Part shown: piece by piece, positions 1-36,791 of the stretch
How the letters are laid out: each line of letters opens with the position of its first letter
Position numbering within the stretch: the stretch's first letter is position 1
Origin: Minisyncoccota bacterium
Lineage (GTDB): Bacteria; Patescibacteriota; Minisyncoccia; UBA9983
Direction of reading: 5' to 3'
NCBI GenBank assembly: GCA_041648395.1
Contig: JBAZPC010000004.1
Location: 1 to 36,791, forward strand
DNA: 36,791 nt
Notes under the pieces: generated by a model
Told to the model about the DNA's origin: nothing
Seen by the model: only the letters and a program-made list of their open reading frames with translations
The model's database searches: none
Position numbers and translations under genes: made by a program

Positions 1-83
1 ATCTCGCGAATAGATATTCCGGTCTCAAGCAAGCGCTCTATTCTGCGCCGTTCGCTGTCCGTTATGTGGTTGTATCCCTTCAT
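1..83 (-). mobile_element. 5' end of probable IS30-family transposase (N-terminal HTH), truncated by window start
   Basis: Not in ORF track. Minus strand from ATG at 83 reads MKGYNHITDSERRRIERLLETGISIREI..., matching the Y-x-H-L/I-T-x-x-E-R...G-x-S-x-R-x-I pattern of IS30 N-terminal HTH. AGGA lies just upstream. Confidence 0.6.
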
Positions 84-100
84 ATTTTCCTATGTTAGGG

Positions 101-126
101 TGTTCGGCTTCAAAGGTAAATTTGCT
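101..126 (-). repeat. Candidate left terminal inverted repeat of the IS30-like element
   Basis: Minus strand AGCAAATTTACCTTTGAAGCCGAACA lies 18 nt upstream of the transposase ATG and loosely resembles IS30-type ends. The partner end is outside the window. Confidence 0.35.
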
Positions 127-172
127 ACCCTCGCCTGGGCGAGGAAAAGTTCTTTAATAAGGGAGGATTGTC

Positions 173-850
173 ATGGACGACAACAAGACCTTGAGTAACG
201 CGGAACTGGAGTTGACGCAAAAAATTCAAATGCATTTTCCGAGAGGAATTATCTCTCTAGATGTGCTGAAAGCATGGAATTCCAGTAAAAAGGAGTTGAT
301 TACAGCGCGTCTTATTGAGACGTTTGGTAAAAGACCGGGAAAAAACAGCTTTGAATTTGAAAAGGATCCCATCCTTACCCTCATCGCCACCGTCAAAGTT
401 CCCGCGAGAACCGGCAGATTCGTCGCCAAAGTCCACTTCATAGTAGACACCGGCAAAAAGGCAAAGGTGAAGATTTCCTATCTGGGAGATAACTTCAGAG
501 AACATTTTCTCGGCAAAACCGAGGAACCAACTTCTGAAACAACCCTCTGCCAGCACGAGCTCAAGAAACCATCAAGAGACATCCCGATCATCAGCGAGCT
601 CGGCGGCGAAAACAAAGCGGAAACAACGCTTTCCGCAATGTTCGGCCTTATGGAAATGCAACCGAATGGTGAAACAGGAACACTGCTTACCAACGGCTAC
701 GCCAACATATTCTATGTTCGTGACCTCGGTGGTGTGCTGTGGACGGTCCGCTGCCTCTGGTCTGGCGTTGGCTGGCTTGTGGGTGCGTCTTCTGTTGACT
801 CTCCGCGCGATTGGGACGCGGGCGACCGTGTCTTTTCTTGCAATTCCTGA
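173..850 (+). CDS. Hypothetical protein, 225 aa; candidate DGR target (C-terminal variable region)
   Basis: GGAGG SD before ATG. C-terminus LLTNGYANIFYVRD...GVLWTVRCLWSGVGWLVGASSVDSPRDWDAGDRVFSCNS resembles CPR DGR target C-termini. Confidence 0.8.
   Translation: MDDNKTLSNAELELTQKIQMHFPRGIISLDVLKAWNSSKKELITARLIETFGKRPGKNSFEFEKDPILTLIATVKVPARTGRFVAKVHFIVDTGKKAKVKISYLGDNFREHFLGKTEEPTSETTLCQHELKKPSRDIPIISELGGENKAETTLSAMFGLMEMQPNGETGTLLTNGYANIFYVRDLGGVLWTVRCLWSGVGWLVGASSVDSPRDWDAGDRVFSCNS
731..850 (+). other. Candidate DGR variable region (VR)
   Basis: Only 5 A in 731-840 and none in 744-797, versus 22 A in 181-240. Many NNC/NNT codons lie between fixed W/G/V residues. Confidence 0.6.
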
Positions 851-897
851 AAACTTAAAAACTTTAAATCTTTAAGAAAGGAGGATTAGACACTTAG

Positions 898-927
898 ACC
901 CTTGGAAACTTTAAAATTTCCAAGGGT
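898..927 (+). terminator. Perfect 11-bp hairpin (terminator and/or DGR homing hairpin)
   Basis: ACCCTTGGAAA-ctttaaaa-TTTCCAAGGGT followed by a T-rich run, 48 nt after the stop of 173..850. Confidence 0.7.
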
Positions 928-938
928 TTTTATTTTTG

Positions 939-947
939 TGTTATAAT
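939..947 (+). promoter_or_regulatory. Extended -10 promoter of recJ
   Basis: TGtTATAAT ending 6 nt before ATG 954. Confidence 0.6.
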
Positions 948-26498: not shown

Positions 26499-27329
26499 AT
26501 GAAAAAATACAGTCCGACAACGCCATCAAGAAGACATCTGACCGGAATTTCTTTCCGAGATGTTTTGACTGCCACCAAACCGGAAAAAAGTTTGACGAAA
26601 GGAAGGAAGAGACATGTTGGAAGAAATTCTGCCGGACGCATCACCGTTCGCCACAAAGGAGGCGGAGTGAAGAGAGTGTATCGCGACGTTGATTTTAAAT
26701 ATGAAAAGAAAAATATTCCGGCTGTCGTTAAGACCATAGAGTATGACCCAAACAGATCCGGCTTTATCGCTCTTGTTTTTTACGCGGATGGAGAAAAAAG
26801 ATATATTCTTGCTCCGGGCAAAATGAAAGTCGGAGACAAAATAATGGTTTCTGAAAATGCCGATGTTAAGGCCGGCAACCGCCTGCCGTTGGAAAAAATT
26901 CCGGTTGGCACTTTTGTGTATAATATAGAATTGAAACCGAATGGGGGAGCGAAAATGGGAAGGGCGGCTGGCAATTACGCGGAAGTGGCGGCGCTGGACG
27001 GAGACAAAGCGCTTTTGAAACTTCCTTCGGGGGAGATAAGAACGGTTTTGGGAAAATGCTGGGCGAGCATCGGCCAGGTTTCCAAAGATGAATATAAATT
27101 GATGAATATCGGCAAAGCGGGAAGGTCGCGCTGGCTCGGTATCAGGCCGACAGTCCGCGGTTCCGCCATGAATCCAGTTGACCATCCATACGGAGGAGGC
27201 GAGGGACGGCAGGGACGCGGCACGCGACGCGCGAAGAGCCTTTGGGGCAAGCCAACCGGCGGCCACAAAACAAGGAAGCCGAAAAAATATTCCAACATTT
27301 TTATTGTTAGCAGAAGAAAGAAAAAATAA
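26499..27329 (+). CDS. rplB: 50S ribosomal protein L2
   Basis: GRNSAGRIT, IEYDPNRS, RGSAMNPVDHPYGGGEG. Confidence 0.98.
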   Translation: MKKYSPTTPSRRHLTGISFRDVLTATKPEKSLTKGRKRHVGRNSAGRITVRHKGGGVKRVYRDVDFKYEKKNIPAVVKTIEYDPNRSGFIALVFYADGEKRYILAPGKMKVGDKIMVSENADVKAGNRLPLEKIPVGTFVYNIELKPNGGAKMGRAAGNYAEVAALDGDKALLKLPSGEIRTVLGKCWASIGQVSKDEYKLMNIGKAGRSRWLGIRPTVRGSAMNPVDHPYGGGEGRQGRGTRRAKSLWGKPTGGHKTRKPKKYSNIFIVSRRKKK

Positions 27330-34517: not shown

Positions 34518-36791
34518 ATGAGACCTGCATGGAAATCCCCAATCGCTTCTCATAGCCGTTTGCGCACGCGGTATTATGATATGCGTGAAAAGGCGAAACG
34601 CATCGCCTTGATTTTAGGAGTGGCTGTTTTTATTTTCTTCACCTTTCAATACTTCTCCTTAGTATCAAAATCATATGCCTATCTTTTGAACGCCTCGGAT
34701 TTATTGGGCCAGTTGGATGAAAACGACCAGCCGGTTTATACAAAAATGGGTATTGGTAATTCGCCAAATAATTCTGGGTTAAATTATCCTTTGGCGGGCA
34801 TAGGCGGTGTTACAGTTGATTCTTCTAACCATCGATTATTTCTTTCTGATACCTATAACAATAGAGTTTTGATTTTTAATCTCGATATTAATAATCATCT
34901 CATTGATCGAATAGCCGATTATGTCCTAGGACAACTTAATTTTTCGACCAATCAAGGAGGTATTGGTTCTAATGTTTTGAATCATCCAACCAATTTAATT
35001 TACGACGCAGACGGGCAACGCCTCTTTGTTCTTGACCCTGACAATAATCGAATTTTAATATTTGATGTTAATATAATAATTAACGGAGAAAATGCTGTTA
35101 ATGTATTGGGGCAAAATGATTTTTTAAGCAATACATCTGGATTGGGCCCCAATAAATTAACATTAGGATCTAGTGAGGTTAATGGTTTAACTTATGATTC
35201 AGTTAATAAACGATTGTTTGTTGGCGACCTTGGTAATAATCGTATAATGATTTTTGATGTATTAACAATCACCAATGGAGAAAATGCCGTTAATGTTTTG
35301 GGAGCTATTAATTTAACTACTCTCGGTAGTGGTGCCTGTGCTACTAGTTCTGTTTATGCGGTCACAGATTTAACTTATGATTCAACGAAACAATTCCTTT
35401 ATGTAGTTGCTGGTTGGGCATTAACATCACAAAGAGTTTTGGTATTTGATGTCAATTCTATAACTAATGGCGAAGATGCCATAAACGTTCTTGGCCAACA
35501 AGATTTTATTACTTGTACGGACGGAGTTGCTGCAAATAAATTTTCTTACCCAATGGGAGCAGTTATTGATCAAGCTAATCAAAAACTATATGTTGCCGAT
35601 CAAAATAATTTCCGTATTCTTATTTTTGATGTATCAACAATCACCAATGGAGAAAATGCCGTTAATGTTTTGGGACAGACAGATTTTATTTCCAATTCTG
35701 GCGGGACAACTCAAGATAAATTAAACCAACCGACGGCCTTAGCTTTATCAAATAACCAGTTGTTTGTTATTGATACAAGAAATAATCGTTTAGTAATTTT
35801 TGATACGGAAGTAATTTCCAATGGTGAAGCAATGGTTGACTTAATAGGTCAGACCGATGATTTATATAATGCTGTTTATACTAACTCAAATGTGAATAAT
35901 TCCCCAAATGGAAGAGGTTTTAATAGCCCAACTCATAGCGCTTTAGATTCTATTAACCGTCGTTTGTTTATTGCTGATTATTCTAACAATCGTATTCTTA
36001 TTTTTAATTTAGATGCGAACGATAGGCCTCAAGATTATATGGCTGATTATGTTTTGGGACAGACAGATTTTATTTCAAATATTAGCGGTGTGACACAAAA
36101 TAAATTTTCAGGTCCGGTGCGGTTACACTATGATTCTGATCATAATAGACTTTTTGTGTTAGACAGGAATAATAGTAGAATTCTTATTTTTGATCTTTCT
36201 TCTGGTATTATCAACGGCATGAATGCTTCTTACGTTTTAGGACAGACAGATTTTATTTCAAACATATCAATCACCACCCAGAGCGGTCTTAGTAGCTCTC
36301 GTGGTTTAACATATGATTCAATAAATCAAAAGCTTTTTGTTGCGGACAGTTCTAATAGCCGCGTCATGATTTTTGATGTGGCCTCTATTACCAATGGCGA
36401 AGATGCTGTGAATGTTTTAGGACAAACTGATTTTATTTCAAACGGGGTCACTCCCACTCAAAGCGGGTTAAATTATCCTGATGGCGTTGCCTACGATTCT
36501 ACCAACCAAAGATTATTTGTTGCGGATAAATTTAATAACCGCGTCATGATTTTTGATGTGGCCTCTATTACCAATGGCGAAGATGCTGTGAATGTTTTAG
36601 GACAGACAGATTTTATTTCAAACATATCAATCACCACCCAGAGCGGTCTTAGTAGCTCTCGTGATTTAACATATGATTCAATAAATCAAAAGCTTTTTGT
36701 TGCGGACAGTTCTAATAGCCGCGTCATGATTTTTGATGTGGCCTCTATTACCAATGGCGAAGATGCTGTGAATGTTTTAGGACAAACTGAT
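34518..36791 (+). CDS. Large NHL-repeat/beta-propeller surface protein, 3'-truncated by window (alternative start 34581)
   Basis: Missing from ORF track (no stop). The frame is open for 758 codons, with an N-terminal hydrophobic segment and 12 (V/L)(L/I)G(Q/A) units about 60 aa apart, e.g. RVMIFDVASITNGEDAVNVLGQTDF. Confidence 0.85.
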   Translation, partial: MRPAWKSPIASHSRLRTRYYDMREKAKRIALILGVAVFIFFTFQYFSLVSKSYAYLLNASDLLGQLDENDQPVYTKMGIGNSPNNSGLNYPLAGIGGVTVDSSNHRLFLSDTYNNRVLIFNLDINNHLIDRIADYVLGQLNFSTNQGGIGSNVLNHPTNLIYDADGQRLFVLDPDNNRILIFDVNIIINGENAVNVLGQNDFLSNTSGLGPNKLTLGSSEVNGLTYDSVNKRLFVGDLGNNRIMIFDVLTITNGENAVNVLGAINLTTLGSGACATSSVYAVTDLTYDSTKQFLYVVAGWALTSQRVLVFDVNSITNGEDAINVLGQQDFITCTDGVAANKFSYPMGAVIDQANQKLYVADQNNFRILIFDVSTITNGENAVNVLGQTDFISNSGGTTQDKLNQPTALALSNNQLFVIDTRNNRLVIFDTEVISNGEAMVDLIGQTDDLYNAVYTNSNVNNSPNGRGFNSPTHSALDSINRRLFIADYSNNRILIFNLDANDRPQDYMADYVLGQTDFISNISGVTQNKFSGPVRLHYDSDHNRLFVLDRNNSRILIFDLSSGIINGMNASYVLGQTDFISNISITTQSGLSSSRGLTYDSINQKLFVADSSNSRVMIFDVASITNGEDAVNVLGQTDFISNGVTPTQSGLNYPDGVAYDSTNQRLFVADKFNNRVMIFDVASITNGEDAVNVLGQTDFISNISITTQSGLSSSRDLTYDSINQKLFVADSSNSRVMIFDVASITNGEDAVNVLGQTD
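36234..36791 (+). repeat. Near-identical 360-bp-period intragenic duplication
   Basis: 36234-36431 vs 36594-36791: 1 mismatch in 198 bp. The 60-nt blocks at 36361, 36541 and 36721 are identical. Confidence 0.95.

What the first reader, a model, noticed from the sequence alone, without database searches (positions are those of the whole stretch)
173..927. Probable remote (orphan) diversity-generating retroelement target
Seen: the last ~120 nt of the gene are strongly A-depleted (5 A in 731-840, none in 744-797; 22 A in 181-240). NNC/NNT codons alternate with fixed W/G/V residues, and a perfect 11-bp hairpin lies 48 nt after the stop. Knowledge: DGRs mutate template adenines (AAY codons) into a C-terminal VR followed by a hairpin, and CPR genomes are rich in DGRs, including targets far from the RT. 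Inference: this protein is diversified in trans, since I found no TR or RT in the window.
Basis: partly seen in the sequence, partly recalled or inferred. Interest (0 to 1): 0.75.

Follow-up and report, generated by a model that had tools for sequence, protein, structure and literature searches.

The report
Retroelement-diversified gene, template found elsewhere
This small gene of an ultra-small groundwater bacterium has a tail that was rewritten by a diversity-generating retroelement whose template lies on another piece of DNA in the same sample; this is a known kind of system, and this copy now looks static.

Summary
ORF 173-850 (225 aa) belongs to a very large Patescibacteria-only protein family with no Pfam, NCBIfam or PHROG match. 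In 35-36 of 80 species-level relatives the gene sits in a compact cassette: target, structured spacer RNA, template repeat (TR), avd, reverse transcriptase.

The A-poor tail (726-847) is a variable repeat (VR). The one public run that holds the window also holds an 823-nt contig at similar depth (16.3 vs about 17). It matches 726-838 with 25 differences, and almost all are A in that contig.

A cassette from another metagenome (L083) agrees with that contig wherever it can be read. It gives 23 of 26 differences at TR adenines, all at codon positions 1-2. The window holds no TR, avd or RT.

The TR sits just downstream of a paralogue (P0002) with a different N-terminal module. P0002 is identical to the window over 575-742 and 840-912.

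The window's VR looks static. It has four non-A mismatches (more than any of 35 cis pairs), one changes a conserved Arg to Cys, and two co-existing haplotypes share the allele.

The hairpin is terminator-like. The fold is only weakly C-type-lectin-like.

Verdict: a new member of a known kind.

The parts
173..850 (+). Target (variable-protein) gene, 225 aa, no signal peptide or membrane segment evident
   Evidence: ORF list. 329 homologues, all ~220-aa hypothetical proteins of Patescibacteria. 2508 representative clusters at E<=1e-3. No Pfam, NCBIfam or PHROG family.
173..355 (+). N-terminal three-helix module (aa 1-61), one of several interchangeable N-terminal types in the family
   Evidence: Alignment A1 shows unrelated N-termini on the same C-terminal domain. 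AF2 predicts helices at 9-20, 29-36 and 40-51. P0002 shares only aa 65-225.
356..850 (+). Conserved ~164-aa domain that carries the VR at its end
   Evidence: Alignments A2 and A4. AF2 domain model has pLDDT 93.8 and pTM 0.88. Best PDB fold match is a C-type lectin, but not significant: E 0.96, TM 0.33-0.35.
726..838 (+). Variable repeat (VR) core
   Evidence: In run X1 an 823-nt contig matches this stretch with 25 differences, nearly all N>A. Against the L083 TR there are 26 differences, 23 at TR adenines, all at codon positions 1-2. The TR has 28 A and the VR keeps 5.
839..850 (+). VR-specific 3' end (IMH-like boundary), TGCAATTCCTGA. TR and VR homology stops here. T839 is a non-A mismatch that turns the conserved Arg223 into Cys.
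   Evidence: The TR reads CGAAACTGCTGT here; the cis VRs read CGCAATTCCTGA. The same CGC-AA (VR) versus CGA-AA (TR) contrast is seen in the L020/L028 and L007/L010 pairs. Arg is present in 97 of 112 homologues.
896..939 (+). Hairpin (13 pairs, 8-nt loop) plus T-run: terminator-like
   Evidence: Terminator scan and fold. 53 of 79 family genes have a stem of 8 bp or more plus a T-run within 140 nt of the stop, in cis and solo loci alike.
575..912 (+). Block shared with the paralogue P0002 in the same sample. It is identical outside the VR apart from C839 in P0002 (575-742 and 840-912).
   Evidence: Shared unitigs 575-742 (depth 28.2) and 840-912 (25.3) branch into two VR alleles at depths 15.7 and 10.2. 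The 15.7 allele translates to the P0002 tail.
1..127 (-). End of a repeated element. A 28-aa ORF start at 83..1 matches the HTH_38 domain, which I know as the N-terminus of IS30-type transposases. The contig ends inside it.
   Evidence: HTH_38 at E 4e-6, 26.8 bits against a cut-off of 27. In X1, 1-127 lies on a 1092-nt contig at depth 44.3, against ~17 for the rest, with a branch at 127.

Best explanation
ORF 173-850 is a variable-protein (target) gene of a Patescibacteria-type diversity-generating retroelement. Its last ~113-122 nt are a variable repeat. This repeat was written by mutagenic retrohoming: an RNA copy of a template repeat is reverse-transcribed with random misincorporation opposite adenines, and the cDNA replaces the VR. 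The template is not next to this gene. It lies on another contig of the same sample, directly downstream of a paralogous target (P0002), in the standard order target, structured spacer RNA, TR, avd (opposite strand), RT. The window's copy is therefore a second, non-adjacent target served in trans. It shares the 3' two-thirds of the gene and the 3' UTR with the cis copy but has a different N-terminal module. It sits beside an IS-like repeat. Shown: VR-TR relation, family membership, absence of TR/avd/RT in the window, the paralogue. Inferred: same genome, presence of an intact RT in this organism, and that this VR is currently static rather than actively diversified.
For: A-depletion and codon pattern.

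The TR is in the same run. An 823-nt contig at depth 16.3 carries A at 756, 761, 762, 765, 768, 776, 777, 782, 783, 788, 789, 800, 801, 806, 807 and 828. Window-specific unitigs have depths 18.2, 14.9 and 17.4.

The contig begins with 34 nt of the shared 3' UTR (joint 916>726). After the TR it continues with CGAAACTGCTGTATTTCTCCCGTCACCTGG.

L083 has the same TR bases at all 19 listed positions and the same 30-nt continuation. It carries a P0002-type target, TR, bAvd/DivGenRetAVD and the start of an RT.

Against that TR the window VR has 23 of 26 differences at TR-A, none at codon position 3.

Family level: 35-36 of 80 loci have a TR 330-480 nt downstream of the VR with 0-3 non-A mismatches. 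42 have an RT homologue, and the L005 RT hits RVT_1. Hypervariable alignment columns (entropy above 3 bits) coincide with the AAY codons of the TR (Mann-Whitney P 1e-6).

Precedents: L020 TR against the L028 VR on another contig of the same MAG (16 of 17 mismatches at A), L007 against L010 (14 of 17), and the two-target cassette L051 with different N-termini.

For stasis: 4 non-A mismatches (793, 808, 831, 839) against a maximum of 3 and a mean of 0.6 in 35 cis pairs. The cis VR of P0002 has none. R223C lies at a 97/112-conserved residue. A minor haplotype (5.4x, 4 SNPs in 861-913) carries the same VR allele.
Against: The RT and avd of this organism were not seen directly. Six of its 25 differences and its avd part are inferred from L083.

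Same-genome membership rests on similar depth and identical flanks only.

The two VR alleles lie between identical 168-nt and 73-nt flanks. Which allele belongs to which gene therefore depends on the assemblers. Unitig depths are noisy: the window allele is at 10.2 against ~17 for its flanks.

Contigs drop rare variants, so low-level ongoing diversification cannot be excluded.

An avd search did not recover an avd on the 99-kb contig that carries P0002.
Confidence: 0.88

Rival explanations
1. The same DGR target, but still actively diversified in trans. The four non-A mismatches would be errors of the low-fidelity RT made in the last homing event.
For: The flanks shared with the cis target are identical over 241 nt while the VR holds 4 non-A differences. 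That excess (about P 0.01, my estimate) fits RT errors better than slow drift. Non-A mismatches also occur in cis pairs (0-3) and in the remote pair L007/L010 (3 of 17). The window allele's unitig depth (10.2) is below that of its flanks (~15-18), as expected if some reads carry rare variants. The 73 nt downstream of the VR are the same as for the cis target.
Against: Four non-A mismatches exceed every one of the 35 cis pairs. All four lie in the 3' half, which in the Bordetella-phage model (my knowledge) is overwritten at each event. C839T changes a conserved Arg and sits in the last bases of TR-VR homology. Two haplotypes share one allele.
Confidence: 0.3
2. Not remote at all. It would be the second target of the same cassette (target1-TR-avd-RT-target2, as in L051), separated from the RT only by an inserted IS-like repeat that broke the assembly.
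For: L051 has exactly this two-target layout with two different N-terminal modules. The window's gene starts 46 nt from the end of a repeat at 2.5-fold depth that begins with an HTH_38 (IS30-type) ORF, and the contig ends there.
Against: Nothing links the far side of the repeat to an RT. The alternative 27-nt upstream sequence seen in X1 matches none of the fetched cassettes. In other assemblies, family members lie on contigs separate from their TR.
Confidence: 0.3
3. Assembly artefact. The VR allele in the window would really belong to the cis gene (alleles swapped between two near-identical paralogues), or the two 'paralogues' would be alleles of two strains rather than two genes of one genome.
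For: Identical flanks of 168 and 73 nt around the VR cannot be bridged by 31-mers or by single short reads. Depths would fit the swapped pairing about as well: 14.9-18.2 upstream against 15.7 and 10.2 for the alleles.
Against: Both upstream contexts and both downstream contexts (recJ side 14.8-17.4; TR side 16.3) are present at roughly single-copy depth, so two loci exist. The P0002 protein of an independent record pairs the other N-terminus with the other allele. Either pairing leaves the window's gene a DGR target without a local TR.
Confidence: 0.12
4. No retroelement is involved. The A-poor tail would simply reflect a Gly/Trp/Val/Ser-rich sequence.
For: Such residues use A-poor codons.
Against: A matching TR with A at exactly the variable codon positions exists. 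Family variability maps onto the AAY codons. Half of the relatives sit next to a TR and an RT.
Confidence: 0.01

Closest known systems
Patescibacteria/CPR DGRs: 'DGR clade 2' of Roux et al. 2021 (PMC8144416) and the 'CPR set' of Wu et al. 2018 (PMC5758913)
   Same: Cellular, groundwater CPR hosts. Small targets without any recognisable domain, signal peptide or membrane segment. C-terminal VR, AAY-rich TR, avd plus RT cassette.
   Different: Here the target has no TR or RT within 36.8 kb. [quoted passage not shown] I could not map this VR family onto their UVR1-6 classes because no supplement is held.
Non-adjacent and remote DGR targets, e.g. the Treponema DGR with seven such targets (as summarised in PMC5758913)
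   Same: One TR/RT serves several paralogous VRs, some far from the cassette. They were assigned by A-to-N-only differences, allowing minor exceptions. The same logic was used here and in the L020/L028 and L007/L010 pairs.
   Different: Wu et al. found remote targets (over 100 kb) only near their Lineage 4, not among CPR DGRs. Here the distance is unknown, and this VR carries more non-A mismatches than is usual.
Bordetella phage BPP-1 DGR (Mtd; target recognition by IMH plus hairpin/cruciform, Guo et al. 2011, PMC3240598, abstract seen; details from my own knowledge)
   Same: Adenine-specific TR-to-VR information flow, a VR at the C-terminus, a VR-specific 3' end where TR and VR diverge, and a hairpin downstream.
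   Different: No G/C-only IMH stretch. The hairpin is 46-48 nt away, AT-rich, has an 8-nt loop and is followed by a T-run (terminator-like). avd is on the opposite strand downstream of the TR. A ~240-nt structured RNA lies upstream of the TR. The fold is not demonstrably C-type lectin.

Membership tests
DGR variable (target) protein | A VR matched by a TR, with differences concentrated at TR adenines | tested here: met
   The X1 contig has 25 differences in 726-838, nearly all N>A. Against the L083 TR, which agrees with that contig at all readable positions, 23 of 26 are at TR-A.
DGR variable (target) protein | Substitutions fall at codon positions 1-2 of AAY-type TR codons, and homologues vary at those columns | tested here: met
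   11 substitutions at position 1, 12 at position 2 and none at position 3. Mean entropy is 2.5 bits at A-containing codons against 0.66 at the others, P 1e-6.
DGR variable (target) protein | A DGR-type reverse transcriptase in the same genome | not testable with these tools
No RT is in the window. RTs lie next to the TR in 42 of 80 relatives. The start of an RT follows the matching TR in L083.
DGR variable (target) protein | Accessory protein Avd with the TR | tested here: inconclusive
   bAvd/DivGenRetAVD lies beside the matching TR in L083. In X1 only the first 30 nt after the TR could be read, and they are identical to L083.
DGR variable (target) protein | Target-recognition elements at the VR 3' end (IMH, hairpin/cruciform) | tested here: inconclusive
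   A VR-specific 3' end exists and 840-912 is identical to the cis target, but T839 deviates. The hairpin is terminator-like and 46-48 nt away.
DGR variable (target) protein | Evidence of ongoing diversification (several VR alleles at one locus) | tested here: not met
   Only one allele was assembled for this locus, and two haplotypes share it. Contigs hide rare variants, so this is weak negative evidence. It bears on activity, not on origin.
C-type lectin-fold VR scaffold (Mtd/TvpA type) | Structural similarity to C-type lectin folds | tested here: inconclusive
   The AF2 models are confident (pLDDT 92.3 and 93.8). The top PDB hit is the C-type lectin MCL (3whd), but at E 0.7-1.0 and TM 0.26-0.35. 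There was no hit at E<=0.001 in PDB or BFVD and no PDB hit by sequence profile.
Rfam RT-9 RNA (for the spacer RNA of the cis cassettes, not in the window) | Score at or above the gathering threshold | tested here: not met
   29.8 bits against 46.1 in L083. No hit at gathering score in 13 cassettes.

The most novel reading that the evidence does not exclude
In Patescibacteria, one compact DGR may routinely serve a dispersed set of paralogous cytoplasmic targets. These would be built by shuffling different N-terminal modules onto one VR-bearing domain that is not a recognisable C-type lectin or Ig fold. Supporting counts: 26 of 80 species-level family members are 'solo', and two same-assembly trans pairs were verified. 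Individual remote copies such as this one would be cut off and frozen by IS insertion and by point mutation of the VR 3' end. This would give natural 'before and after' pairs for working out what a DGR needs to recognise a target.
Probability: 0.25. Interest if true: 0.5.

Novelty: new member of a known kind. Interest (0 to 1): 0.3.

Why it matters
It shows that an A-depleted, NNY-patterned gene tail can be recognised as a DGR target from sequence alone, and that its template can be recovered from the sample's contigs even when it is missing from the binned genome. For DGR biology the case is modest. It adds a documented non-adjacent target to the CPR clade, where single adjacent targets were thought to be the rule. 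It also offers a cis/trans paralogue pair with identical flanks: one copy perfectly matches the TR at non-A sites, and the other carries four transitions, including one at the homology boundary. That is a ready-made comparison for testing target recognition. The target family is huge (over 2500 clusters at 50% identity), unnamed, apparently cytoplasmic and of unknown ligand.

Tried and rejected
- Degenerate VR/TR pattern scans of genome contigs and metagenome contigs found nothing, not even the window's own VR. The window's assembly is therefore not in those collections.
- Exact look-up of P0002's contig: not on record.
- Laying X1 on a narrow VR stretch returned only the identical contig, because the TR and the other allele fall below 80% likeness there.
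- Laying X1 on L004 to reach an RT failed. L004 has lost its RT (mreB follows the TR), and only the spacer and TR start matched at depth ~16.
- An avd search did not find an avd on a 99,189-nt contig.
- No second run holds the gene, so there is no time series.
- The T-poor stretch at 27180-27289 was considered as a possible minus-strand VR. It is the basic C-terminus of ribosomal protein L2.
- Paul et al. 2017 is not held, and the Wu et al. supplements are not held.
- The 27-nt alternative upstream sequence at position 127 matched nothing fetched.

Full report
**Observation**

ORF 173-850 (+) encodes 225 aa. Stretch 710-842 is the only place in the window where a 110-nt frame has 6 or fewer A. 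Stretch 744-797 is the longest A-free run of the window. Given the A fraction of the rest of the gene (0.33), 5 A in 113 nt has P = 7e-14. The hairpin is present: 11 perfect pairs at 898-908/917-927, or 13 pairs at 896-929. It is followed by a T-run, so it scores as an intrinsic terminator.

**What the protein is**

There is no Pfam, NCBIfam or PHROG match.
- A word-indexed search found 329 relatives. All are ~220-aa hypothetical proteins from Patescibacteria MAGs.
- An exhaustive HMMER search found 2508 representative clusters at E<=1e-3, 1452 of them at E<=1e-10.
- The alignments show a conserved ~160-aa C-terminal domain behind several unrelated N-terminal modules.
- The tail reads GVLxAVxxxWxxxGWxVxAxSVxxPxxWxxGxQVFSRNS. 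Fixed scaffold residues alternate with columns of more than 3 bits entropy.

**The family is a DGR target family**

I fetched 80 species-level loci.
- 35-36 have a second copy of the tail 330-480 nt downstream on the same strand. Its mismatches to the gene copy are almost all A in the downstream copy, for example 22/22, 18/18 and 14/14.
- 42 have a reverse-transcriptase homologue just beyond it. The L005 RT reaches the RVT_1 threshold.
- 26 loci with at least 2 kb downstream have neither a TR nor an RT within the fetched flanks.
- Same-assembly trans pairs exist. The TR of L020 matches the VR of L028 on another contig, with 16 of 17 mismatches at A. The TR of L007 matches the VR of L010, with 14 of 17.
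- L051 carries two targets with different N-termini around one TR-avd-RT.

**The window's own template**

The window holds no TR, avd or RT. One public run (X1, a groundwater metagenome kept as contigs) holds 96% of the window's sampled words.

Laying its contigs on 560-960 at 80% likeness gave four relevant pieces:
- The window's VR allele on a 148-nt unitig, depth 10.2.
- A second allele at depth 15.7. It translates exactly to the tail of P0002, a 221-aa relative with a different N-terminus.
- Shared flanks 575-742 (depth 28.2) and 840-912 (depth 25.3).
- An 823-nt contig at depth 16.3 that matches 726-838 with 25 differences. Nineteen of these are listed. Sixteen are N>A; the others are 793 T>C, 808 C>T and 831 T>C.

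The 823-nt contig starts with 34 nt of the shared 3' UTR (joint 916>726). After position 838 it continues with CGAAACTGCTGTATTTCTCCCGTCACCTGG.

P0007 has the P0002-type N-terminus. Its 1830-nt contig (L083, from another metagenome) holds four parts:
- the target gene at 202-867;
- a TR at 1198-1310;
- a bAvd/DivGenRetAVD gene on the opposite strand at 1333-1644;
- the N-terminus of an RT.

The L083 TR agrees with the X1 contig at all 19 listed positions and in the 30-nt continuation.

Against the L083 TR, the window VR differs at 26 positions in 726-838.
- 23 are TR adenines, 11 at codon position 1 and 12 at position 2.
- The TR has 28 A and the VR keeps 5.
- The TR encodes Asn (AAY) exactly at the family's hypervariable columns.

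Window-specific unitigs have depths 18.2, 14.9 and 17.4. This is close to the TR contig's 16.3 and compatible with one genome, but it is not proof.

**Mechanism**

Shown:
- The tail is a VR derived from this TR or its immediate ancestor.
- The TR lies downstream of a paralogous target and not in the window.

From established knowledge of DGRs: TR RNA is reverse-transcribed by the RT-Avd complex with misincorporation opposite A, and the cDNA replaces the VR. avd-TR-RT can act in trans (Wu et al. 2018, PMC5758913).

Inferred: the window's gene is a second, non-adjacent target of that cassette.

**Is it still active?**

Four observations argue for a static copy.
1. In the 105-nt frame used for all loci, the window VR has 4 non-A mismatches (793, 808, 831, 839). 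The 35 cis pairs have a maximum of 3 and a mean of 0.6. The P0002 allele has none.
2. T839 lies in the last bases of TR-VR homology. It changes Arg223, which is conserved in 97 of 112 homologues, to Cys.
3. A minor haplotype (113-nt unitig, depth 5.4, with SNPs at 861, 889, 892 and 913) continues from the same unbranched VR unitig. Two haplotypes that differ 4 times in 53 nt therefore share one VR allele.

Three points count against this.
- The flanks shared with the cis copy are identical over 241 nt. The four mismatches might therefore be RT errors of a recent event.
- Unitig depths are noisy.
- Contigs hide rare variants.

I put ongoing activity at about 0.3.

**Distance**

The gene starts 46 nt from the end of a repeat at 2.5-fold depth. 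On the minus strand this repeat begins with an HTH_38 ORF, a domain I know from IS30-type transposases. The contig ends inside it. The cassette could therefore lie just beyond the repeat, as in the L051 layout, or anywhere else.

**Hairpin**

53 of 79 family genes, cis and solo alike, have a long stem plus a T-run 20-60 nt after the stop. A terminator is the simplest reading. A second role in target recognition is not excluded.

**Fold**

The AF2 models are confident: full length pLDDT 92.3, and domain pLDDT 93.8 with pTM 0.88. Foldseek ranks a C-type lectin (MCL, 3whd) first, but at E 0.7-1.0 and TM 0.26-0.35. Nothing in PDB or BFVD reaches E 0.001, and a sequence profile finds no solved relative. 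A lectin-like fold is therefore neither confirmed nor excluded.

**Comparison and novelty**

This matches the CPR 'clade 2' DGRs. Their targets lack known domains (Roux et al. 2021). Non-adjacent targets are a known DGR feature: 45 of 372 DGRs in Wu et al.. The same paper reports that CPR DGRs tend to have one target, and that remote targets cluster elsewhere in the RT tree. The case is a new member of a known kind.

Two earlier notes of this scan on other genomes describe the same family. I used them only as leads.

Noticed in passing
L083:960-1205 and the equivalent stretch of 32 other cassettes (alignment A3); absent from the window: The ~240 nt between the target gene's terminator and the TR form a conserved structured RNA. 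It has 6 helices and 44 pairs, with 96.4% of cells paired and 35 pairs showing compensatory changes. None of 500 shuffles reaches this, and slid controls give 40-53% paired. No Rfam family reaches its gathering score in 13 cassettes. The only similarity is a weak one of the first two hairpins to RT-9 (29.8 bits against 46.1). The known BPP-1 motif RT-10 lies downstream of the TR (PMC5737381), so this upstream RNA may be an undescribed part of the CPR DGR RNA.
   Followed up: partly
window 1-127 (minus strand ORF start at 83): End of a repeated element at 2.5-fold depth, with an HTH_38 (IS30-type) ORF start. The contig ends in it, and X1 shows a branch exactly at 127, with an alternative 27-nt upstream sequence.
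   Followed up: partly
L083:1681-1698: A (GA)8 tract lies between the divergent avd gene and the RT start. The X1 TR contig ends at about this point.
   Followed up: no
L083:1310-1345 and L004, L059, L067, L076: A small hairpin CTCCCG...CGGGAG plus T-run lies immediately 3' of the TR. The C-terminus of the avd gene on the other strand overlaps it.
   Followed up: no
L004:10800-11400; L001:11010-12100: These cassettes keep target and TR but have lost the RT. In L004 mreB follows. In L001 a T1R_D3-like ORF follows. L006 has an in-frame stop inside its RT.
   Followed up: partly
L060, L041, L065: Family loci without a detectable TR still hold sequence similar to the spacer RNA downstream of the gene. 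These may be decayed cassettes.
   Followed up: no
P0121 (926 aa) and P0122 (379 aa): Relatives with five and two tandem copies of the VR-bearing domain in one protein.
   Followed up: no
window 667: The window has T (Asn166). The only run that holds it has G (Lys, as in P0002) in all contigs there. The window was therefore assembled from a slightly different data set or variant.
   Followed up: no
window 27180-27289: The most T-poor stretch of the window. It is the basic C-terminal part of ribosomal protein L2, which is ordinary.
   Followed up: yes
window 34518-36791: An open-ended ORF built of 180-192-nt tandem repeats (several repeat families at 60-95% identity), running off the contig end.
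   Followed up: no
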